Below are positions 1-10,906 of a stretch of DNA of 10,906 nt, one piece after another. Each line of letters opens with the position of its first letter. Position 1 is the stretch's first letter. The stretch lies in IMG/VR virus record IMGVR_UViG_2681813263_000008, one strand, 5' to 3'. The position numbers and the translations under genes were made by a program. Origin of the DNA: a virus (Duplodnaviria; Heunggongvirae; Uroviricota; Caudoviricetes). Below the pieces are notes generated by a model. The model saw nothing but the letters and a program-made list of their open reading frames with translations. It was not told the origin of the DNA and did no database searches.

Positions 1-1
1 G

Positions 2-109
2 GCGAATTACCGTCTTATATCACTGGCGCTGACATCTCCGGATGACGGGGGCAGCTGTTATCTCTGGCTCAACCGTGGGCAACCACCCGCAGTTAACCGG
101 CGACGATAA
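2..109 (+). CDS. FII: 3' fragment of head-tail joining protein (lambda FII-like); start lies upstream of window
   Basis: Frame-2 reading from position 2 is open to TAA at 107-109 and ends ...SPDDGGSCYLWLNRGQPPAVNRRR, matching the lambda gpFII C-terminus as I recall it. It sits immediately upstream of Z, as in lambda. Confidence 0.55.
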   Translation, partial: ANYRLISLALTSPDDGGSCYLWLNRGQPPAVNRRR

Positions 110-123
110 ACGCAGGGTGAATT

Positions 124-699
124 ATGGCGATAAAAGGGCTTGATCAGGCGATTGACAATCTGAGCCGGGTTCGTAAAAACGCCATTCCGGCTGCTTCTGC
201 AATGACCATTAACCGCGTGGCCACAACGGCGATTAATCAGTCTTCGTCACAGGTTGCCCGGGAAACCAGGGTGAGACGGAAACTGGTAAAGGAACGGTCC
301 AGACTGAAACGGGCGACGGTCAGAAATCCGAATGCCAGAATTATCGTTAACCGCGGTGATCTCCCTGTGATTAAGCTGGGGATCAGAATGCTGGGGCGTC
401 GTCCGAACAGCATACTCAAAGCCGGTCAGCATCGTTATCAGCGGGCATTTATCCAGCGATTAAATAATGGGCGCTGGCATGTTATGCAACGTCTTCCCCA
501 GGCCAGATATGAGGAGGGCAATGACGACAAGGGAAGGAAAAAGCGTAATCGCCTTCCCATTCAGGTGGTGAAAATCCCGATGGCGGCCCCACTGAAACAG
601 GCATTTGATGAGAATGTTGACCGTATCCGGCGTGAACGCCTGCCTAAAGAACTGGCATACGCGCTGAAACAACAACTGAGGATTGCGATAAAACGATGA
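124..699 (+). CDS. Z: tail completion protein (lambda gpZ-like)
   Basis: 191-aa ORF beginning MAIKGLDQAIDNLSR... and ending ...[22 protein letters not shown], very similar to lambda gpZ (192 aa) in sequence and length. Its stop overlaps the U start as ATGA at 696-699. Confidence 0.9.
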   Translation: MAIKGLDQAIDNLSRVRKNAIPAASAMTINRVATTAINQSSSQVARETRVRRKLVKERSRLKRATVRNPNARIIVNRGDLPVIKLGIRMLGRRPNSILKAGQHRYQRAFIQRLNNGRWHVMQRLPQARYEEGNDDKGRKKRNRLPIQVVKIPMAAPLKQAFDENVDRIRRERLPKELAYALKQQLRIAIKR

Positions 700-1091
700 A
701 ACACACTGACATTCGTGCCGCAGTGCTGGATGCACTCGAGCAGCATGAACACGGGGCGACGCTGTTTGATGGTCGCCCCGTTGTTTTTGACGAAGAGGAT
801 TTTCCTGCGATCGCGGTTTATCTGACGGATGCAGAGTATACCGGTGAAGAGCTGGATGCAGATACCTGGCGGGCCACACTGCATATTGAGGTGTTTTTAC
901 CGGCACAGGTACCTGATTCGGAGCTCGATCAGTGGATGGAAAGCCGGATTTATCCGGCGATGACTGCGATCCCTGCACTGGCAGGACTGATTACCACGAT
1001 GGTTACGCAGGGCTATGAGTATCGTCGTGATGACGATATGGCGTTATGGAGCTCTGCGGATCTGACTTATTCCATTACATACGAGATGTGA
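696..1091 (+). CDS. U: tail terminator protein (lambda gpU-like)
   Basis: 131-aa [31 protein letters not shown]...[13 protein letters not shown], near-identical in length and sequence to lambda gpU (131 aa). The start is coupled to the Z stop; GAGGA lies upstream of the following V. Confidence 0.92.
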
Positions 1092-1098
1092 GGACGAT

Positions 1099-1851
1099 AT
1101 GGCAACACCAAATCCCCTGGAGCCGGTAAAAGGTGCCGGTACCACTCTGTGGGTTTACAACGGCAAGGCTGATGCTTATGCAAACCCGTTGTCAGACGAT
1201 GACTGGCAGCGACTGGCTAAGGTGAAGGATCTGACGCCGGGCGAGATGACGGCTGAATCCTATGATGATAACTACCTGGATGATGAAGACGCGGACTGGA
1301 GCGCGACCGGGCAGGGGCAGAAATCTGCAGGTGATACCAGTTTTACGCTGGCCTGGAAACCGGGAGAGGAAGGCCAGAAAGGGCTTATAGGCTGGTTTGA
1401 AAGCGGCGATGTCCGGGCCTATAAAATCCGTTTTCCGAATGGCACGGTGGATGTGTTTCGTGGCTGGGTCAGCAGTATCGGTAAGGCCGTGACGGCGAAA
1501 GAAGTGATCACCCGCACGGTGAAAGTCACTAACGTGGGTAAACCTTCTGTAGCGGAAGAACGCAGCAAAATTACGCCGGTCAGTGCGATTAAGGTGACGC
1601 CGACATCCGGTACGGTGGCAAAAGGGAAAACAACCACCCTGACGGTTTCTTTTGAGCCGGAAAGTGCAACCGACAAGACGTTCAGAGCGGTTTCCGCCGA
1701 TCCGTCGAAAGCCACCATTAGTGTGAAAGATATGACAATTACGGTAAACGGCGTGGCGACAGGTAAGGTGCAGATCCCTGTGGTGAGCGGAAATGGTCAG
1801 TTCGCCGCAGTGGCTGAAGTCACCGTTACTGAAGCGGGCGCTGCAGGGTAA
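1099..1851 (+). CDS. V: major tail tube protein with C-terminal Ig-like (Big_2-type) domain (lambda gpV-like)
   Basis: 250-aa ORF containing [33 protein letters not shown] and [39 protein letters not shown], all hallmark gpV stretches. The C-terminal ~90 aa (TLTVSFEPE...[12 protein letters not shown]) resembles the gpV Ig-like domain. A GAGG RBS precedes the ATG. Confidence 0.93.
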
Positions 1852-1864
1852 ACGGAGGTAATAC

Positions 1865-2296
1865 ATGTTTCTGAAAACAGAACAATTTGAATATAACGGT
1901 GTGTCTGTCACGCTTTCCGAATTGTCTGCGCTGCAGCGTATCGAGCATCTTGCCCTCCTGAAACGGCGTGCAGAACAGGCAGAATCCAGCGGCAACCTGC
2001 AGGTAAGCGTGGAAGATCTCGTCAGAACCGGCGCGTTTCTGGTGGCGATGTCCCTGTGGCATAACCATCCACAGAAAACGCAGTCACCGTCAATGAATGA
2101 GGCCGTGATGAAGATAGAGCAGGAAGTGCTCACCACCTGGCCTGCCGATGCCATTGCCCGGGCGGAAGACGTGGTGTTGTGCCTGTCCGGGATGATCGAA
2201 GCTGTTCGTCCGGATACTGATATTACTGAAGTGGCGAAAAATAACACGCTGACTGATGATGATTTTTCTGCGGGAAAGTCTTCGACGGCGAGCTGA
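1865..2296 (+). CDS. G: tail assembly chaperone (lambda gpG-like)
   Basis: 143-aa ORF MFLKTEQFEYNGVSVTLSELSALQRIEHLALLKRRAEQAES...AMSLWHNHPQKTQSPSMNEAV..., matching lambda gpG. GGAGG RBS sits 8 nt upstream. The slippery heptamer lies near its 3' end. Confidence 0.9.
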   Translation: MFLKTEQFEYNGVSVTLSELSALQRIEHLALLKRRAEQAESSGNLQVSVEDLVRTGAFLVAMSLWHNHPQKTQSPSMNEAVMKIEQEVLTTWPADAIARAEDVVLCLSGMIEAVRPDTDITEVAKNNTLTDDDFSAGKSSTAS

Positions 2297-2736
2297 ACTT
2301 TGCCCTCAGACTGGCGCGTGAGATGGGGAGACCCGACTGGCGCGCCATGCTTGCCGGGATGACATCCACCGAATATGCCGACTGGCACCGTTTTTACCGC
2401 ACGCATTATTTTCAGGATACCCAGCTGGATATGCATTTTTCCGGGCTGACGTACGCTGTACTCAGCCTGTTTTTTTGCGATCCGGATATGCATCCCTCTG
2501 ATTTCAGTCTGCTTGTCCCCCGGCATGAGGAAGAGCAGGTGGAGAGGCCGGATGAGGACAAAATGCTGATGCAGAAAGCGGCAGGACTTGCCGGAGGCGT
2601 CCGGTTCGGTGGGGACGGAGGGCGCGATATTTTATCGTCTGCGGATGTGGCGGATGTCATGGTGGATGATGCCGCATTAATGATGGCTTCAGCGGGGATT
2701 CCGGGAGGTGTGAGATATGTCCCAGCCGGTTGGTGA
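1865..2736 (+). CDS. T: tail assembly chaperone G-T fusion made by programmed -1 ribosomal frameshift at 2272-2278 (lambda gpGT-like)
   Basis: G is read in frame 2 to the heptamer G GGA AAG (2272-2278). The -1 frame (frame 1) is closed by three consecutive TGA codons (2254-2262) and opens only at 2263, then runs to TGA at 2734-2736, encoding ...VFDGELNFALRLAREMGRPDWRAMLAGMTSTEYADWHRFYRT.... Same architecture as lambda G/GT; predicted fusion ~290 aa. Confidence 0.8.
2272..2278 (+). other. slippery heptamer G GGA AAG (programmed -1 frameshift signal for G-T)
   Basis: Exact X XXY YYZ heptanucleotide in the G reading frame, the same heptamer as the lambda G/T site. It sits just where the -1 frame becomes open. 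Confidence 0.8.
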
Positions 2737-5378
2737 TCTTGTTATTGACCTGAGTCTGGATGCTGTCCGTTTCGATGAGCAGATGAGCCGGGTAAGGCGT
2801 CATTTTTCAGGTCTGGATACCGACGCCAGAAAAACCGCCAGTGCTGTTGAACAGGGCCTGAGCCGCCAGGCGCTGGCTGCACAAAAAGCCGGGATTTCCG
2901 TCGGGCAGTATAAAGCGGCCATGCGAACCCTGCCCGCACAGTTTACGGATATCGCCACGCAGCTTGCCGGTGGTCAGAATCCCTGGCTGATCCTGCTGCA
3001 ACAGGGCGGTCAGGTGAAGGACTCCTTCGGCGGGATGATCCCCATGTTCAGGGGGCTTGCCGATGCGATCACCCTGCCGATGGTCGGGGTCACCTCGCTG
3101 GCGGTGGCGACAGGTGCACTGGTGTACGCCTGGTACCAGGGAGATTCCACGCTTTCAGCGTTTAATAAAACCCTGGTTCTTTCCGGTAATCAGTCCGGAC
3201 TGACTGCCGATCGTATGCTGACTCTCTCAAGAGCCGGGCAGGCAGCAGGGCTGACGTTTAACCAGGCGAGAGAGTCACTGGCAGCCCTGGTGAATGCCGG
3301 TGTGCGTGGTGGTGAACAGTTTGATGCCATCAACCAGAGTGTCGCGCGTTTTGCGTCTGCATCCGGTGTGGAGGTGGATAAAGTCGCTGAAGCCTTCGGG
3401 AAGCTGACCACTGACCCGACGTCGGGACTGATGGCGATGGCGCGCCAGTTCCGTAACGTGACGGCAGAGCAGATTGCGTATGTTGCACAGCTGCAGCGTT
3501 CCGGAGACGAGGCCGGGGCATTGCAGGCGGCGAACGATATCGCCACGAAAGGCTTTGATGAGCAGACCCGTCGCCTGAAAGAAAACATGGGAACACTGGA
3601 GACCTGGGCGGATAAAACAGGGAAGGCATTCAAATCGATGTGGGATGCCATTCTGGATATCGGTCGTCCGGAATCCTCAGCGGATATGCTCGCCAGTGCG
3701 CAGAAGGCATTTGATGAGGCGGATAAAAAATGGCAGTGGTACCAGAGTCGGAGCCAGCGCCGCGGTAAAACCTCCTCTTTCCGGGCCAACCTTCAGGGCG
3801 CATGGGATGACCGGGAAAATGCCCGTCTGGGTCTGGCAGCGGCAACGCTGCAGTCGGATATGGAAAAAGCCGGTGAACTGGCGGCAAGGGACAGGGCTGA
3901 GCGTGAGTCGTCACAGCTGAAGTATACCGGAGAGGCGCAGAAGGCGTATGAGCGCCTGCTGACGCCACTGGAGAAATATACCGCCCGNNNNNNNNNNNNN
4001 NNNNNNNNNNNNNNNNNNNNNNNNNNNNNNNNNNNNNNNNNNNNNNNNNNNNNNNNNNNNNNNNNNNNNNNNNNNNNNNNNNNNNNNNNNNNNNNNNNNN
4101 NNNNNNNNNNNNNNNNNNNNNNNNNNNNNNNNNNNNNNNNNNNNNNNNNNNNNNNNNNNNNNNNNNNNNNNNNNNNNNNNNNNNNNNNNNNNNNNNNNNN
4201 NNNNNNNNNNNNNNNNNNNNNNNNNNNNNNNNNNNNNNNNNNNNNNNNNNNNNNNNNNNNNNNNNNNNNNNNNNNNNNNNNNNNNTGCGAATGAAAAAAT
4301 CAGCCAGCAGCGCCGTGATTTATGGAAAGCGGAAAATCAGTATGTGGTCCTGAAAGAGGCCGCCACGAAACGGCAGTTATCTGAGCAGGAAAAATCCCTG
4401 CTGGCCCATGAGAAAGAAACGCTGGAGTACAAACGCCAGCTGGCTGAGCTGGGCGACAAGATTGAACACCAGAAACGGCTGAATGAGCTGGCACAGCAGG
4501 CGGCGCGGTTTGAACAGCAGCAGAGCGCGAAGCAGGCGGCAATCAGCGCAAAAGCCCGCGGACTCACCGACCGTCAGGCGCAGCGGGAGTCGGAAGAGCA
4601 GCGCCTTCGTGAGGTGTACGGTGATAATCCGGCTGCGCTGGCGAAGGCCACATCTGCACTGAAGAACACCTGGTCTGCGGAGGAGCAGCTTCGTGGAAGC
4701 TGGATGGCCGGGATGAAGTCCGGCTGGGGCGAGTGGGCGGAAAGTGCGACGGACAGTTTTTCGCAGGTTAAAAACGCGGCCACGCAGACCTTTGACGGTA
4801 TTGCACAGAATATGGCAGCGATGCTGATCGGCAGCGAACAGAACTGGCGTGGTTTCACCCGTTCTGTGCTGTCCATGCTGACAGAGATTTTTCTGAAGCA
4901 GGCGATGGTGGGGATAGTCGGGAGTATCGGCAGCGCCATTGGCGGTGCTTTCGGTGGTGGTGCGTCTGCCTCCACGGGGACGGCCATTCAGGCTGCGGCG
5001 GCGAACTTCCATTTCGCGACCGGGGGATTTACGGGGACGGGGGGTAAATATGAACCTGCGGGGATTGTTCATCGCGGGGAGTTTGTCTTCACGAAGGAGG
5101 CGACCAGCCGGATTGGTGTCGGCAATCTGTACCGCCTGATGCGGGGCTATGCGGAAGGTGGTTATGTCGGCGGTGCCGGAAGTCCGGCGCAGATGCGGCG
5201 GGCGGAAGGCATTAATTTTAATCAGAACAATCACGTGGTGATTCAGAACGACGGCCCCAACGGGCGGGCAGGGCCGCAGCTGATGAAAGCGGTGTATGAG
5301 ATGGCCCGCAAGGGGGCACAGGATGAACTCCGGCTGCAGTTGCGTGATGGCGGTATGTTATCAGGGAGCGGTGGATGA
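2717..5378 (+). CDS. H: tail tape measure protein (lambda gpH-like); interrupted by a 298-nt N-run with a +1 frame offset across it
   Basis: N-terminal part (2717-3987, frame 2) MSQPVGDLVIDLSLDAVRFDEQMSRVRRHFSG...QKAYERLLTPLEKYTA and C-terminal part (4287-5378, frame 0) ANEKISQQRRDLWKAENQYVVLKEAATKRQLS...AIQAAAANFHFATGGFTGTGGKYEPAGIVHRGEFVFTKEATSRIGVGNLYRLMRGYA... both match lambda gpH. GGGAGGTG RBS precedes the start; the start overlaps the T stop by 20 nt. The frame is not continuous across 3988-4285. Confidence 0.85.
3988..4285. other. run of 298 N (unresolved or masked sequence) inside H
   Basis: Directly visible as n characters; flanked on both sides by gpH-like coding sequence in different frames. 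Confidence 0.99.
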
Positions 5379-5722
5379 AAACCTTTCGCTGGAAAGTGAA
5401 GCCGGATATGGAGGTGAACTCGCAGCCATCGGNNNNNNNNNNNNNNNNNNNGCGTGAAGTGCGTTTTGGTGACGGGTACTCACAGCGTATGGCGGCAGGG
5501 CTGAATGCTGACCTGAAAACATACAGGGTGACGCTTTCCGTGACCCGGGAGGAGGCCCGGCATCTGGAAGCGTTCCTGGCAGAGCACGGTGGCTGGAAGG
5601 CATTTTTGTGGAAGCCACCCTATGCATACCGGCAGATAAAGGTGACCTGTGCCGGGTGGTCTGCGCGGGTCGGGATGTTGCGCGTTGAGTTCAGCGCGGA
5701 GTTTAAGCAGGTGGTGAACTGA
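5375..5722 (+). CDS. M: tail tip protein (lambda gpM-like); contains a 19-nt N-run
   Basis: ORF MKTFRWKVKPDMEVNSQPS[N-run]REVRFGDGYSQRMAAGLNADLKTYRVTLSV...IKVTCAGWSARVGMLRVEFSAEFKQVVN matches lambda gpM (109 aa). Frame is continuous across the N-run. ATG overlaps the H stop (ATGA at 5375-5378). Confidence 0.88.
   Translation: MKTFRWKVKPDMEVNSQPSXXXXXXXREVRFGDGYSQRMAAGLNADLKTYRVTLSVTREEARHLEAFLAEHGGWKAFLWKPPYAYRQIKVTCAGWSARVGMLRVEFSAEFKQVVN
5433..5451. other. run of 19 N inside M
   Basis: Directly visible; the M reading frame is continuous across it. Confidence 0.99.
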
Positions 5723-6429
5723 TGCAGGATATTCGCGAAGAAAGTCTGAACGAGTCGGTTAAGTCAGAGCAGTCACCGCGGGTGGTACTCTGGGAAATCG
5801 ACCTGACGGTACAGGGTGGTGAGCGGTATTTTTTCTGTAATGAGCTGAATGAAAAAGGGGAGCCGGTCACCTGGCAGGGGCGTAAGTATGAGGCATACCC
5901 GATTGACGGCAGCGGCTTTGAGATGAACGGCCGGGGCAGCAGTGCCAGACCGTCGCTGACGGTGTCCAATCTGTTCGGTCTGGTCACCGGGATGGCGGAA
6001 GACCTGCAGAGTCTGGTGGGGGCCACGGTGGTCCGCCGCCGGGTGTATGCCCGTTTTCTGGATGCGGTGAATTTCGTTGCGGGCAATCCGGAGGCGNNNN
6101 NNNNNNNNNNNNNNNNNNNNNNNNNNNNNNNNNNNNNNNNNNNNNNNNNNNNNNNNNNNNNNNNNNNNNNNNNNNNNNNNNNNNNNNNNNNNNNNNNNNN
6201 NNNNNNNNNNNNNNNNNNNNNNNNNNNNNNNNNNNNNNNNNNNNNNNNNNNNNNNNNNNNNNNNNNNNNNNNNNNNNNNNNNNNNNNNNNNNNNNNNNNN
6301 NNNNNNNNNNNNNNNNNNNNNNNNNNNNNNNNNNNNNNNNNNNNNNNNNNNNNNNNNNNNNNNNNNNNNNNNNNNNNNNNNNNNNNNNNNNNNNNNNNNN
6401 NATGTCGGCAATTTTGGCGGTTTCCTTTC
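5722..6429 (+). CDS. L: tail tip protein (lambda gpL-like); 3' end and stop hidden in N-runs
   Basis: N-terminal part (5722-6096, frame 1) MQDIREESLNE...VVLWEIDLT..GGERYFFCNE.NEKGEPVTWQGR.Y..YPI.GSGFE.NG...RPSLTVSNLFGLVTGMAEDLQSLVGATVVRRRVYARFLDAVNFV matches lambda gpL. An isolated island 6402-6429 encodes (N)VGNFGGFLS, the gpL C-terminal motif, but in frame 2. Start overlaps the M stop (TGATG). Confidence 0.8.
6097..6401. other. run of 305 N inside L
   Basis: Directly visible; separates the gpL N-terminal part from the 28-nt gpL C-terminal island. Confidence 0.99.
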
Positions 6430-6701
6430 NNNNNNNNNNNNNNNNNNNNNNNNNNNNNNNNNNNNNNNNNNNNNNNNNNNNNNNNNNNNNNNNNNNNNNN
6501 NNNNNNNNNNNNNNNNNNNNNNNNNNNNNNNNNNNNNNNNNNNNNNNNNNNNNNNNNNNNNNNNNNNNNNNNNNNNNNNNNNNNNNNNNNNNNNNNNNNN
6601 NNNNNNNNNNNNNNNNNNNNNNNNNNNNNNNNNNNNNNNNNNNNNNNNNNNNNNNNNNNNNNNNNNNNNNNNNNNNNNNNNNNNNNNNNNNNNNNNNNNN
6701 N
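6430..6701. other. run of 272 N covering L 3' end, L-K junction and K 5' end
   Basis: Directly visible. Confidence 0.99.
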
Positions 6702-7244
6702 CCTGGCTGAGCGAGGCTGACCGGCGGNNNNNNNNNNNNNNNNNNNNNNNNNNNNNNNNNNNNNNNNNNNNNNNNNNNNNNNNNNNNNNNNNNNNNNNNN
6801 NNNNNNNNNNNNNNNNNNNNNNNNNNNNNNNNNNNNNNNNNNNNNNNNNNNNNNNNNNNNNNNNNNNNNCTGTTCCGGGATGCTTATCATCTGGCGGGGA
6901 CTGAAATGCCGGATTTTCATCGCGAGGATGACTGGTGGCGCAACGGTCAGAACCTTTACCTGGACAATATGGCGGTCACCGGCTTTTACCGGGTGCCCCT
7001 GTCCTCTGCACAGGCGGGCGATATTCTGCTGTGCTGCTTTGGTGCTTCGGTACCGAACCATGCCGCCATTTACTGCGGCAACGGTGAGCTGCTTCACCAT
7101 CTGCCTGAACAACTGAGTAAACGGGAGAGGTATTCCGAAAAATGGCAACGACGAACGCATTCAGTCTGGCGTCACCGCCACTGGCACGCATCTGCCTTCA
7201 CGGGGATTTACAACGATTTGGCCGCCGCCTCAGCCTGTATGTGA
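6702..7244 (+). CDS. K: tail tip assembly protein (lambda gpK-like); 5' end hidden in N-runs, visible in two pieces
   Basis: Island 6702-6727 encodes WLSEADRR (frame 2). The segment 6870-7244 (frame 0) encodes LFRDAYHLAGTEMPDFHREDDWWRNGQNLYLDNMAVTGFYRVPL...GDILLCCFGASVPNHAAIYCGNGELLHHLPEQLSKRERYSEKWQRRTHSVWRHRHW..., consistent with the gpK C-terminal region. Stop TGA at 7242-7244 lies 103 nt inside I, the same K/I overlap length as in lambda. Confidence 0.75.
6728..6869. other. run of 142 N inside K
   Basis: Directly visible; the K-like islands on either side are in different frames. Confidence 0.99.
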
Positions 7245-7646
7245 ACACGGCAGCGGAAGCCATTCGCGCCCTGTCGATGCAGATGCCGGGCTTTCGCCGT
7301 CAGATGAACGAAGGCTGGTACCAGATACGTATTGCCGGTTATGACACGGCACCGGAGGCGGTGTACGCCCGTCTTCACGAACAGCTGGGTGAGGGAACGG
7401 TCATCCACATTGTGCCGCGACTGGCCGGGGCCGGAAAGGGTGGACTGCAGATTGTGCTGGGGGCGGCAGCCATCGTGGGCTCTTTCTTCACTGCCGGGGC
7501 ATCAATGGCGTTATGGGGTTCAGCCCTGGCAGCCGGTGGTTTTTCTGCCACCACGATGCTGTTTTCACTTGGAGCCAGCATGATTCTGGGCGGTGTGGCC
7601 CAGATGCTGGCCCCGAAGGCAAAAACACCGGATTACCGCGCAACGG
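7142..7646 (+). CDS. I: tail tip assembly protein (lambda gpI-like); 3' end hidden in the 615-nt N-run
   Basis: ORF MATTNAFSLASPPLARICLHGDLQRFGRRLSLYVNTAAEAIRAL...WYQIRIAGYD...VIHIVPRLAGAGKGGLQIVLGAAAIVGSFFTAGA...FSLGASMILGGVAQMLAPKAKTP, clearly gpI-like. GAGAGG RBS precedes the start. It begins inside the K 3' end in a different frame. Confidence 0.85.
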
Positions 7647-8261
7647 NNNNNNNNNNNNNNNNNNNNNNNNNNNNNNNNNNNNNNNNNNNNNNNNNNNNNN
7701 NNNNNNNNNNNNNNNNNNNNNNNNNNNNNNNNNNNNNNNNNNNNNNNNNNNNNNNNNNNNNNNNNNNNNNNNNNNNNNNNNNNNNNNNNNNNNNNNNNNN
7801 NNNNNNNNNNNNNNNNNNNNNNNNNNNNNNNNNNNNNNNNNNNNNNNNNNNNNNNNNNNNNNNNNNNNNNNNNNNNNNNNNNNNNNNNNNNNNNNNNNNN
7901 NNNNNNNNNNNNNNNNNNNNNNNNNNNNNNNNNNNNNNNNNNNNNNNNNNNNNNNNNNNNNNNNNNNNNNNNNNNNNNNNNNNNNNNNNNNNNNNNNNNN
8001 NNNNNNNNNNNNNNNNNNNNNNNNNNNNNNNNNNNNNNNNNNNNNNNNNNNNNNNNNNNNNNNNNNNNNNNNNNNNNNNNNNNNNNNNNNNNNNNNNNNN
8101 NNNNNNNNNNNNNNNNNNNNNNNNNNNNNNNNNNNNNNNNNNNNNNNNNNNNNNNNNNNNNNNNNNNNNNNNNNNNNNNNNNNNNNNNNNNNNNNNNNNN
8201 NNNNNNNNNNNNNNNNNNNNNNNNNNNNNNNNNNNNNNNNNNNNNNNNNNNNNNNNNNNNN
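7647..8261. other. run of 615 N covering I 3' end and the I-J junction
   Basis: Directly visible; only 16 nt of readable sequence (with the J RBS) separate it from the J start codon. Confidence 0.99.
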
Positions 8262-8277
8262 TTCAGGGGAAGGCTGT

Positions 8278-10906
8278 ATGGGAAAAGGTGGCGGTAAGGC
8301 ACACACGCCTCGTGAGGCGAAGGATAATCTCAAATCCACGCAGATGATGAGCGTGATTGATGCGATTGGTGAGGGACCGATAGAAGGTCCGGTGAAGGGA
8401 CTGCAGAGTATCCTGGTGAACAAAACCCCGCTGACGGACACGGACGGTAATCCCGTGATACACGGTGTGACGGCGGTCTGACGCGCCGGGGAGCAGGAGC
8501 AGACACCACCGGAAGGCTTTGAGTCCTCCGGTGCTGAAACCGGACTGGGCGTGGAAGTGACGAAGGCAAAACCGGTGACGCGCACCATTACGTCCGCGAA
8601 CATTGACCGCCTGCGGGTTACCTTCGGGGTGCAGTCACTGGTGCAGACCACGTCAAAGGGTGACCGAAACCCGACATCCGTCCGCCTGCTGATTCAGTTA
8701 CAGCGTAACGGTAACTGGGTGACAGAAAAGGATGTCACCATTAACGGCAAGACCACCTCGCAGTTTCTGGCGTCGGTGATTCTGGATAATCTGCCTCCCC
8801 GTCCTTTTAACATCCGGATGGTCCGGGAGACAGCGGACAGCACCACGGACCAGCTGCAGAATAAGACGCTGTGGTCGTCATACACCGAAATCATCGATGT
8901 GAAACAGTGCTACCCGAACACGGCCATTGTGGGGCTGCAGGTGGATGCGGAGCAGTTCGGCGGCCAGCAGATGACGGTGAACTACCATATCCGCGGTCGC
9001 ATCATCCAGGTGCCGTCAAACTATGACCCGGAAAAACGCACGTACAGTGGTATCTGGGACGGCAGCCTGAAACCGGCATACAGCAACAATCCGGCCTGGT
9101 GTCTGTGGGACATGCTGACTCACCCGCGCTACGGCATGGGAAAACGTCTGGGGGCGGCGGATGTGGACAAGTGGGCGCTGTATGCCATCGGGCAGTACTG
9201 CGACCAGACGGTCCCGGATGGTTTCGGGGAGACCGAGCCGCGGATGACCTTCAATGCGTACCTGGCACAACAGCGTAAGGCATGGGACGTGCTCAGTGAT
9301 TTCTGCTCGGCGATGCGCTGTATGCCGGTATGGAACGGCCAGACGCTGACGTTTGTTCAGGACCGCCCGTCGGATGTGGTGTGGCCGTACACCAACAGCG
9401 ATGTGGTGGTGGATGATAACGGCGTGGGTTTCCGCTACAGCTTCAGTGCCCTGAAGGACCGGCACACGGCGGTGGAGGTGAATTATACCGACCCGCAGAA
9501 CGGCTGGCAGACCTCCACGGAACTGGTGGAAGACCCGGAAGCCATACTGCGCTACGGACGCAACCTGCTGAAGATGGACGCGTTCGGCTGTACCAGCCGC
9601 GGTCAGGCCCACCGTGCCGGACTGTGGGTGATAAAGACCGAACTGCTGGAAACGCAGACGGTGGATTTCACGCTCGGGTCTCAGGGGCTGCGGCACACAC
9701 CCGGTGACATCATTGAAATCTGTGATAACGACTATGCCGGGACCCTGACCGGCGGACGTGTCCTGTCCATTGATGCTGCCACCCGCACTCTGACGCTGGA
9801 CCGTGAAGTGACACTTCCGGAGACCGGTGCCGCCACGGTGAACCTGATTAACGGCAGCGGTAAGCCGGTGAGTGTGGACATCACCGAACACCCCGCGCCG
9901 GACCGGATACAGGTCAGTACCCTGCCTGATGGTGTGGAGACATACGGGGTGTGGGGACTCTCCCTGCCGTCACTGCGCCGTCGCCTGTTCCGCTGTGTCT
10001 CCGTCCGGGAAAACACGGACGGCACCTTTGCCATCACGGCGGTGCAGCACGTACTGGAAAAAGAAGCCATCGTGGATAACGGTGCCCGCTTTGAGCCGCA
10101 GTCAGGTTCCCTGAACAGCGTCATCCCACCGGCAGTGCAGCACCTGACGGCCAGTATCTGGCGCAGGCGAAATGGGACACGCCGCGGGTGGTGAAGGGTG
10201 TGCGCTTCAGTCTGCGCCTGACCAGTGGTAAGGGAACGGATGCCAGACTGGTGACCACCGCCATCACCGCAGACACGGAGCACCGTTTCAGCGGCCTGCC
10301 GCTCGGGGAATACACCCTGACGGTGCGGGCGATAAACAGCTATGGCCAGCAGGGTGAACCTGCCACCACCACCTTCCGGATTGCCGCACCGGCAGCACCG
10401 TCGCGGATTGAGCTGACGTCGGGCTATTTTCAGATAACCGCAACGCCGCATCTTGCCGTTTATGACCCGACGGTACAGTTTGAGTTCTGGTTCTCGGAAA
10501 AGCGGATTGCGGATATCAGGCAGGTTGAAACCACAGCACGCTATCTTGGCACGGCGCTGTACTGGATAGCCGCCAGTATCAATATCAAACCGGGCCATGA
10601 TTATTATTTTTACGTTCGCAGTGTGAACACCGTTGGCAAATCGGCATTCGTGGAGGCTGTCGGTCGGGCGAGCGATGATGCGGAAGGTTACCTGGATTTT
10701 TTCAAAGGAGAGATAGGGAAAACACATCTGGCTCAGGAGCTGTGGACGCAGATTGATAACGGTCAGCTTGCGCCTGACCTGGCTGAAATCAGGACGTCCA
10801 TTACGGATGTCAGCAATGAAATCACGCAGACCGTCAATAAGAAACTGGAAGACCAGAGTGCGGCAATTCAGCAGATACAGAAGGTTCAGGTTGATACAAA
10901 TAATAA
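8278..10906 (+). pseudogene. J: host specificity / central tail fibre protein (lambda gpJ-like), 3'-truncated by window end; as written it is interrupted by an in-frame TGA (8479-8481) and a frameshift near 10152
   Basis: Three collinear J-like segments. (1) 8278-8478, frame 1: MGKGGGKAHTPREAKDNLKSTQMMSVIDAIGEGPIEGPVKGL...IHGVTAV, then TGA. (2) 8482-10191, same frame: RAGEQEQTPPEGFESSG...TRTITSANIDRLRVTFGVQ...KQCYPNTAIVGLQVD...PAWCLWDMLTHPRYGMGKRLGAADVDKWALY...CTSRGQAHRAGLW...PPAVQHLTA. (3) 10152-10906, frame 0, open to window end: [24 protein letters not shown]...[35 protein letters not shown]...[44 protein letters not shown].... AGGGGAAGG RBS precedes the ATG. The type could equally be CDS if the two lesions are sequencing errors. 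Confidence 0.8.

What the first reader, a model, noticed from the sequence alone, without database searches (positions are those of the whole stretch)
8461..8490. In-frame TGA at codon 68 of the J (host-specificity) gene
Reading from the J start at 8278 gives ...IHGVTAV, then TGA at 8479-8481, and the same frame continues with perfect J-like sequence (RAGEQEQTPPEGFESSG...). Lambda J has a sense codon (Phe, by my recollection) at this position. As written, J terminates after 67 aa and the remaining ~2.4 kb has no proper start; the ORF track's 'start' at 8551 is a GTG inside the J frame. This is either a genuine nonsense mutation (J is essential for adsorption, so the element would be defective), a base-calling error, or much less likely TGA read-through.
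Basis: partly seen in the sequence, partly recalled or inferred. Interest (0 to 1): 0.55.

Follow-up and report, generated by a model that had tools for sequence, protein, structure and literature searches.

The report
Nonsense-mutated tail-tip gene in dead prophage
The in-frame TGA is a real, inherited TGG-to-TGA (Trp68-to-stop) mutation in the J tail-tip gene of a decayed lambda-like prophage of Shigella sonnei, which also has a 22-bp frameshifting deletion in J and has lost its head genes, so this is an ordinary pseudogene.

Summary
Observation confirmed. ATG 8278 opens a lambda-J-type reading frame that hits TGA at 8479-8481 (codon 68) and continues in frame. The nearest intact homologues (E. 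coli prophage gpJ, about 99% DNA identity) are identical over the first 90 codons except this codon, which is TGG (Trp). So the lesion is a single G>A transition at 8481.

It is not a base-calling error. The same TGA is in 11 other assemblies examined, including one complete chromosome (CP032523.1). The deposited fragments are named "host specificity protein J [Shigella sonnei]". The exact 61-mer occurs in none of 5,426 complete E. coli genomes and none of 50,697 phage records.

It shifts the frame and ends the middle fragment at 10194. J is therefore split into three pieces. In the complete chromosome, nested IS elements replace the lysis, terminase and head genes; the window's first 34 bases are the end of an IS21-family element.

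Read-through or selenocysteine recoding is not supported and could not rescue the gene. Verdict: routine prophage decay in an IS-rich, genome-reducing pathogen. Low interest.

The parts
1..34 (.). Terminal end of an IS21-family insertion sequence (...CACTGGCGCTGACA). Homology to intact prophages stops here.
   Evidence: Homology to the intact prophages L001 and L002 starts only at base 35. In L003, L005, L007 and L015 the same 34 bases continue upstream into istA/istB genes (PF00665 rve, PF01695 IstB_IS21).
35..109 (+). 3' remnant (last 25 codons plus stop) of the FII-like head-tail joining gene, cut off by the IS.
   Evidence: The translation ...SPDDGGSCYLWLNRGQPPAVNRRR* equals the C-terminus of the L001 head-tail joining protein.
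124..7646 (+). Tail genes Z (124-699), U (696-1091), V (1099-1851), G (1865-2296), T (2323-2736), H (2717-5378), M (5375-5722), L (from 5722), K (to 7244) and I (from 7142/7241). They are interrupted only by N runs, not by lesions.
   Evidence: ORFs. In the N-free sister loci L003-L012 and L015 these genes have normal lengths (191, 131, 250, 143, 137, 857, 109, 232, 247 and 226/193 aa) and the expected Pfam families. The readable blocks are 99.9-100% identical to the window apart from one short N run.
7647..8261 (.). N run (615 N standing for 503 real bases). It hides the 3' part of gene I and the 343-bp I-J spacer.
   Evidence: The real sequence was read in L003 9482-9984.
8278..8478 (+). J fragment 1: codons 1-67 of the tail-tip attachment (host-specificity) protein J.
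   Evidence: The exact 67-aa product is deposited (for example CSQ27547.1) and seen on 111 contigs.
8479..8481 (+). Premature stop TGA at codon 68. The ancestral codon is TGG (Trp), changed by G>A at 8481. The next base is C (context GTC TGA CGC).
   Evidence: TGG in L001 and L002. (Trp in every cluster member that reaches residue 68). (TGG in E2348/69). (TGA in L003-L012 and L015).
8482..10150 (+). J fragment 2: codons 69 to about 624, in the original frame. Gene callers start it at GTG 8551, which has no Shine-Dalgarno sequence in front.
   Evidence: Pfam FNIII-A_GpJ (2.5e-39) and Phage-tail_3 (1.2e-38). The exact 547-aa product is deposited as 'host specificity protein J [Shigella sonnei]'. 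The sequence upstream of 8551 is.
10144..10150 (+). Surviving copy of the CTGACGG direct repeat. The junction of the 22-bp deletion (TGGAGGTGAGCGCAGCTGACGG lost) lies between 10150 and 10151.
   Evidence: Alignment to L001. The intact sequence GCACCTGACGGTGGAGGTGAGCGCAGCTGACGGCCAG is in L016. The deletion is present in all 11 S. sonnei-type loci.
10151..10194 (+). Out-of-frame tail (..[14 protein letters not shown]) ending at stop 10192-10194.
10151..10906 (+). J fragment 3: the true J frame resumes, shifted by the deletion, and runs off the window. Gene callers start it at 10188 or 10200.
   Evidence: Frame 0 translation. Pfam Ig_J (entered at profile position 38 of 104, so the domain is cut by the deletion) and Ig_J_second. 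In L003 the fragment runs 513 aa to the natural J stop.

Best explanation
The window is the tail module of a defective lambda-like prophage of Shigella sonnei. Its J gene (tail-tip attachment / host-specificity protein) is a pseudogene. A G>A transition at 8481 turned Trp68 (TGG) into TGA, so translation from ATG 8278 ends after 67 residues. Independently, replication slippage between two CTGACGG repeats removed 22 bp at 10150/10151 and shifted the frame inside the first Ig-like domain. The prophage had also lost its lysis, terminase and head genes to IS insertion and deletion. Purifying selection on J would then have been relaxed and such lesions free to fix by drift in the clonal S. sonnei lineage. 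Shown: both lesions, their ancestral states, their presence in many independent assemblies, and the absence of the head module. Inferred: the slippage mechanism, the relaxed selection, and the lack of any function for the fragments. The order of the events is unknown.
For: TGA at codon 68. TGG in the closest intact gpJ genes, with the other 89 of the first 90 codons identical. Trp at residue 68 in every cluster member that reaches it and TGG in E2348/69. Lambda has Phe (TTC), so the position is aromatic in the family. The same TGA and the same 22-bp deletion are in 10 draft assemblies and in the complete chromosome CP032523.1. The 547-aa fragment is named [Shigella sonnei] by NCBI. The exact 61-mer is in 0 of 5,426 complete E. 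coli genomes (best hit has one mismatch) and 0 of 50,697 phage records. The deletion is flanked by CTGACGG repeats. Repairing both lesions restores a 1157-aa J that is 98.8% identical to an annotated gpJ, with no further lesion. Upstream of Z in CP032523.1 lie holin, DUF1327, an IS3-family transposase and IS21 istA. Intact relatives carry lysozyme, Rz, Nu1, A, W, B, C, D, E, FI and FII there. The window starts with the IS end and a 25-codon FII stump. Against L001, the first 1,870 nt of J differ by 11 synonymous, 2 missense and 1 nonsense change, which is the pattern of a recently inactivated gene.
Against: No raw reads were inspected for the window's own assembly. That assembly is of modest quality: it contains N runs and 4 private SNPs near its 3' end. 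All other tail genes are intact, which could hint at retention. Two lesions both falling in J by chance has a probability of only about 0.09, which is not significant, and S. sonnei is a young clone. The species name rests on NCBI protein names, not on a whole-genome comparison made here. Whether every S. sonnei lineage carries both lesions was not tested.
Confidence: 0.95

Rival explanations
1. Base-calling or assembly error. The real genome would have TGG and the TGA would be an artefact of this low-quality scaffold.
For: The window comes from an assembly with six N runs of unfaithful length. It has a few private differences near its 3' end. Multiple J paralogues in Escherichia and Shigella genomes (median 3 places per genome) can confuse short-read assembly.
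Against: An identical TGA and an identical 22-bp deletion are in 10 other assemblies from different projects and in a finished 5.03-Mb chromosome. Positions 8262-10418 are 100% identical across the 10 draft assemblies.
Confidence: 0.01
2. Functional recoding. The UGA would be read through, either by near-cognate tRNA-Trp (which would restore the ancestral residue exactly) or as selenocysteine, so full-length J would still be made.
For: From established knowledge, not tested here: UGA followed by C is the weakest termination context in E. coli, and UGA read-through by tRNA-Trp is what makes the Q-beta A1 protein. The context here is GUC UGA CGC.
Against: The TGA is derived, because every close relative seen has TGG. 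No phage record and no complete E. coli genome carries this allele. The downstream RNA folds no better than shuffled sequence (z = -0.71), and Rfam finds nothing. Any read-through product would hit the 22-bp frameshift and stop at 10194. There are no head or terminase genes with which to make a particle.
Confidence: 0.02
3. Exaptation. The split J fragments, or the otherwise intact tail module, would be kept by selection for a host function such as a tailocin-like particle, exclusion of incoming phages, or a reservoir for recombination.
For: Ten upstream tail genes are intact in all loci examined, and lom, stf and tfa downstream are intact where the contigs reach them. The I-J spacer carries a conserved PasB-like sRNA unit.
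Against: J is the trimeric hub of the lambda tail tip (PDB 8IYK family). Fragment 1 has no domain hit, and the deletion cuts an Ig domain. GTG 8551 has no ribosome-binding site. Intactness of the other genes is expected from the youth of the clone alone, and no functional data exist.
Confidence: 0.02

Closest known systems
Phage lambda tip attachment protein J (NP_040600.1; cryo-EM entries 8IYK, 8IYL, 8K35)
   Same: Same gene position (after K and I, before lom). Same domain series: FNIII-A_GpJ, Phage-tail_3, Ig_J, Ig_J_second, Phage_Tail_Tip and Ig_GpJ_C. The N-terminal 624 residues align end to end with E = 0.
   Different: Lambda J is one intact 1132-aa ORF with Phe (TTC) at residue 68. Here the gene is in three pieces: TGA at codon 68 and a 22-bp deletion near codon 625.
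Intact gpJ of E. coli lambdoid prophages (for example WP_059293907.1 in NZ_CM142696.1; ATCC 25922 WP_016265923.1; PPompW-type prophages)
   Same: About 99% DNA identity over 8262-9400. The first 90 codons are identical except codon 68. The flanking tail genes are the same.
   Different: They have TGG at codon 68 and keep the 22 bp and the full head and packaging module.
Deposited S. sonnei fragments CSQ27547.1 (67 aa) and CSQ27542.1 (547 aa), 'host specificity protein J'
   Same: Exactly the products of window 8278-8478 and 8551-10191.
   Different: None. These are the same allele, already in public databases as split CDSs.
Pseudogene formation and IS-mediated decay of prophages in Shigella (general phenomenon; see PMC8072062 on IS-driven pseudogenisation in Shigella)
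   Same: A prophage truncated by nested IS21-family and IS3-family elements, plus point and slippage lesions in a gene no longer under selection.
   Different: Nothing distinctive.
Programmed UGA read-through (Q-beta A1) and bacterial selenocysteine recoding
   Same: Only the presence of an in-frame UGA followed by C.
   Different: The UGA is not conserved in relatives, there is no SECIS-like hairpin, and a downstream frameshift follows.

Membership tests
Lambda gpJ (tail-tip attachment / host-specificity protein) family | Characteristic domain series: FNIII-A_GpJ, Phage-tail_3, Ig_J, Ig_J_second, then Phage_Tail_Tip and Ig_GpJ_C | tested here: met
   One search found these domains in the window fragments. 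One search found the C-terminal domains in the sister loci, beyond the window's end.
Lambda gpJ (tail-tip attachment / host-specificity protein) family | Position in the tail operon: downstream of K and I, upstream of lom and stf | tested here: met
   Gene tables, with lambda itself.
Lambda gpJ (tail-tip attachment / host-specificity protein) family | A single uninterrupted ORF of about 1130-1230 aa (a functional member) | tested here: not met
   TGA at codon 68 and a 22-bp frameshifting deletion. The gene is a pseudogene derived from this family.
Pseudogene (inactivated copy of a known gene) | Disabling lesions relative to intact orthologues, with the ancestral state identifiable | tested here: met
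   TGG>TGA and loss of 22 bp relative to L001, L002 and L016. The in-silico repair gives a full-length J.
Pseudogene (inactivated copy of a known gene) | The lesion is real and heritable, not an artefact | tested here: met
   Eleven independent assemblies, including a complete chromosome.
Pseudogene (inactivated copy of a known gene) | No functional product is made | not testable with these tools
   This needs proteomics or genetics. It is inferred from the two lesions and the missing ribosome-binding site at GTG 8551.
Programmed stop-codon read-through / selenocysteine recoding | The in-frame stop is conserved among functional homologues | tested here: not met
   Close relatives have TGG and lambda has TTC. 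The exact allele is in 0 of 5,426 E. coli genomes and 0 of 50,697 phage records.
Programmed stop-codon read-through / selenocysteine recoding | A stimulatory RNA structure (SECIS or read-through hairpin) just 3' of the UGA | tested here: not met
   The fold of 8470-8545 has z = -0.71 against shuffles, and there is no Rfam hit.
Programmed stop-codon read-through / selenocysteine recoding | An open frame downstream that yields a complete protein | tested here: not met
   The frame is broken at 10150/10151, with a stop at 10192-10194.

The most novel reading that the evidence does not exclude
The least ordinary reading not strictly excluded is this. The S. sonnei lineage keeps this otherwise intact tail module under selection. 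The module comprises ten tail genes, a divergent PasB-like sRNA unit in the I-J spacer, and lom/stf. The leaky UGA-C codon, which tRNA-Trp would decode back to the ancestral Trp, would be a relic of a stage when low-level J was still made before the 22-bp deletion arose. That would make the module an exapted prophage remnant and not a passively decaying one.
Probability: 0.03. Interest if true: 0.35.

Novelty: already known. Interest (0 to 1): 0.08.

Why it matters
It matters little. It documents one more pseudogene in a degraded prophage of Shigella sonnei, a species known for IS expansion and gene loss. The practical value is for annotation: the 67-aa, 547-aa and roughly 510-aa 'host specificity protein J' CDSs deposited for this species are fragments of one dead gene, and the two lesions are simple clonal markers. 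The result also shows that an in-frame stop in a draft scaffold can be validated without reads, by exact look-up of the truncated product in independent assemblies.

Tried and rejected
(1) I scanned genome contigs with a 44-mer spanning the codon, with N at the wobble base. It gave 0 hits, so the source species representative is not in that collection and no survey came from it.

(2) I made exact look-ups of three reconstructed proteins to order the lesions: W68 plus deletion (638 aa), TGA only (1066 aa) and fully repaired J (1157 aa). None is in the collection, so the order stays unresolved. The test is weak because it needs exact matches.

(3) SECIS or read-through structure: the fold is not better than shuffled sequence. 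Rfam at gathering thresholds finds nothing in the window or in L003.

(4) A literature search for a description of this S. sonnei J pseudogene found only general papers on Shigella IS and pseudogenes.

The comparison was done in Python instead.

(6) I considered whether the N runs hide further lesions. I rejected this because the N-free sister loci are 99.9-100% identical in the flanking blocks (apart from one short N run) and show full-length genes there.

(7) I considered whether L004 and L008, where the same J allele sits behind different upstream genes, indicate a second copy. Both joins contain N at the transition, so scaffolding across repeated prophage segments is the simpler reading. 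This is not resolved.

Full report
**1. The observation**

The window is a lambda-type tail operon. It holds Z 124-699, U, V, G, T, H from 2717, M, L, K and I, then J from ATG 8278.

Translation from 8278 gives 67 sense codons ending ...IHGVTAV, then TGA at 8479-8481. The same frame continues RAGEQEQTPPEGFESSG.... GTG 8551 lies in this frame and is only the mechanical start of ORF 8551..10194. It has no Shine-Dalgarno sequence in front of it.

The window also holds six N runs totalling 1,651 N. Each run is longer than the real sequence it replaces, by 88, 18, 70 and 112 bases over the four blocks. Their lengths are therefore unfaithful. ORFs that run through them, such as 7513..8481, are artefacts.

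**2. The ancestral codon**

A megablast of 8262-9400 finds J genes in 4,482 of 5,426 complete E. coli genomes. The best hit is 99.0% identical and none is identical. The best phage record is 97.6%.

In the two closest loci I fetched (L001 NZ_CM142696.1 and L002 ATCC 25922), the first 90 codons equal the window except codon 68, which is TGG (Trp). Every cluster member that reaches residue 68 has Trp there, and E2348/69 has TGG. Lambda has TTC, Phe. The lesion is a single G>A transition at 8481.

**3. Error or real mutation**

The exact 67-aa product is on record in 146 index blocks. The 10 places shown all carry TGA in their DNA: GCA_001259515, GCA_001259615, GCA_900487965, GCA_023802015, GCA_902503815, GCA_001253895, GCA_026492805, GCA_001252175, GCA_023116035 and GCA_041282275.

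A look-up of the Z protein brought in a finished 5.03-Mb chromosome, CP032523.1 (L015), with the same TGA. Positions 8262-10418 are identical in the 10 draft assemblies.

NCBI names the 547-aa middle fragment 'host specificity protein J [Shigella sonnei]' (CSQ27542.1 and others). This explains why no complete E. coli genome matches exactly. The exact 61-mer around the TGA is in 0 of 5,426 E. coli genomes, where the best hits have one mismatch. It is also in 0 of 50,697 phage records.

The outcome is the opposite, so a base-calling error is excluded.

**4. A second lesion in J**

The J frame breaks again. Against L001 the window lacks 22 bp after 10150.

The intact sequence, seen in L016, is GCACCTGACGG-TGGAGGTGAGCGCAGCTGACGG-CCAG. 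The lost segment is therefore one CTGACGG repeat plus the 15-bp spacer, which is the signature of replication slippage (the mechanism is inferred).

The shifted frame reads [14 protein letters not shown] and stops at 10192-10194. The true J frame resumes in another phase and runs off the window. All 11 sister loci share the deletion.

Pfam places FNIII-A_GpJ and Phage-tail_3 in the middle fragment. The first Ig_J domain is entered only at profile position 38 of 104 in the third fragment, so the deletion cuts a domain.

Repairing both lesions in L003 yields an uninterrupted 1157-aa protein that is 98.8% identical to the L001 gpJ. There are therefore exactly two lesions.

**5. State of the prophage**

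The window's first 34 bases are the end of an IS21-family element. Bases 35-109 encode only the last 25 residues of the FII-like head-tail joining protein.

In CP032523.1 the region upstream of Z reads Q antiterminator, DNA methylase, nanS-like esterase, holin, DUF1327, an IS3-family transposase and IS21 istA. Intact relatives (L014, L017-L019) have lysozyme, Rz, Nu1, A, W, portal, protease, D, E, FI and FII in that place. The element cannot package DNA or build heads whatever the state of J.

The other ten tail genes are intact. With two lesions and J making up about 30% of the module, both falling in J has a probability of about 0.09, so nothing need be read into this.

Against L001, the first 1,870 nt of J show 11 synonymous, 2 missense and 1 nonsense difference. 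This is the pattern of a gene that evolved under constraint until recently.

**6. Mechanism and rivals**

Best explanation (confidence about 0.95): ordinary pseudogenisation by a nonsense transition plus a slippage deletion, in a prophage remnant no longer under selection, fixed in the clonal S. sonnei lineage.

Read-through. From general knowledge, UGA-C is a weak terminator and tRNA-Trp would restore the ancestral residue, as in Q-beta A1. However:
- the stop is derived and absent from all functional relatives seen;
- the downstream RNA folds no better than shuffles (z = -0.71);
- Rfam finds nothing;
- any read-through product would terminate at 10194.

Exaptation of the fragments has no support. 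Fragment 1 has no domain hit, and J is the trimeric hub of the tail tip in the solved lambda structures (8IYK family).

The order of the two lesions could not be established. Exact look-ups of the single-lesion reconstructions found nothing.

**7. Comparison with what is known, and novelty**

The gene is a dead member of the lambda gpJ family. Its domains and synteny meet the family's definition; an intact ORF does not. The fragments are already deposited as separate CDSs. IS-driven decay and pseudogene accumulation in Shigella are well documented (for example PMC8072062). The finding is real but ordinary.

**8. Side observation**

The 343-bp I-J spacer is hidden under the window's N run 7647-8261 and can be read in L003 9658-10000. 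On the minus strand it carries a near-consensus promoter (TTCACA-16-TATAAT, 11 of 12) and an intrinsic terminator. Together these predict an RNA of about 97 nt.

The Hfq-bound sRNA PasB of EPEC E2348/69 maps to the same place and strand: NC_011601.1 1466343-1466261, between the tail assembly gene I and gpJ (PMC8550237 supplementary file 8). The terminator is identical over 25 of 25 bases, the promoter region is conserved, and the body is about 70% identical.

The spacer is present at 80% coverage or more in 1,445 of 5,426 E. coli genomes, and none of the 12 records listed has any feature annotated there. A 2026 preprint notes that PasB sits inside a phage structural operon and is the Pas sRNA most prevalent in Shigella.

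Noticed in passing
window 10144-10194 (junction 10150/10151): A second disabling lesion in J that the finding does not mention. It is a 22-bp deletion between CTGACGG direct repeats, followed by a frameshift and a stop at 10192-10194. All S. sonnei-type assemblies examined share it.
   Followed up: yes
window 3988-4285, 5433-5451, 6097-6401, 6430-6701, 6728-6869, 7647-8261: Six N runs are longer than the real sequence they replace. For example, 19 N stand for 1 base and 615 N for 503 bases, for a total excess of 288. They look like scaffold gaps of estimated size at segments repeated among prophages. They create spurious long ORFs and false frame changes in H, M, L, K and I.
   Followed up: yes
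L003 9658-10000 (equivalent to the masked window stretch just upstream of 8262): The 343-bp I-J spacer holds, on the minus strand, a near-consensus sigma-70 promoter plus an intrinsic terminator, predicting an RNA of about 97 nt. It occupies the same position and strand as the EPEC sRNA PasB. The terminator is identical (25/25), the promoter is conserved and the body is about 70% identical. The spacer occurs in about a quarter of complete E. coli genomes, none of the 12 records listed annotates it, and Rfam has no hit.
   Followed up: partly
window 1-109; L015 6871-9877: The prophage is cut inside the FII-like gene by an IS21-family element, which in the complete chromosome CP032523.1 is itself next to an IS3-family element. 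The lysis, terminase and head genes are missing.
   Followed up: yes
window 2272-2278: The lambda-type slippery heptamer GGGAAAG lies near the end of G, where the programmed -1 frameshift makes the G-T fusion. It appears conserved and intact.
   Followed up: no
L004 (GCA_001259615.1) and L008 (GCA_001253895.1): The same doubly broken J allele sits behind different upstream genes: a different Z-to-H set with head genes in L004, and another prophage's H-M-L' in L008. N bases lie at the transitions in both. This is either scaffolding across repeated prophage segments or a second copy or recombinant.
   Followed up: partly
L016 (CP049281.1, 4.59-Mb IS-rich chromosome): A related prophage there keeps TGG and the 22 bp in J, but no G or K gene is called and IS66 and IS3 elements lie nearby. 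This looks like independent decay of the same prophage type in another genome.
   Followed up: no
window 10419, 10832, 10848, 10868: Four single-base differences are private to the window relative to all ten sister draft assemblies. They lie in the part of J where paralogous copies diverge, so collapsed-repeat assembly noise is likely.
   Followed up: no
L005/L006 downstream of J (about 12400-17250): Downstream lie lom, a long stf-type tail fibre gene, and two oppositely oriented tfa genes with an inverted gp37_C fibre-tip cassette. A 60-aa resolvase/invertase stump follows. This resembles a Pin/Gin-type invertible fibre segment whose invertase is truncated.
   Followed up: no
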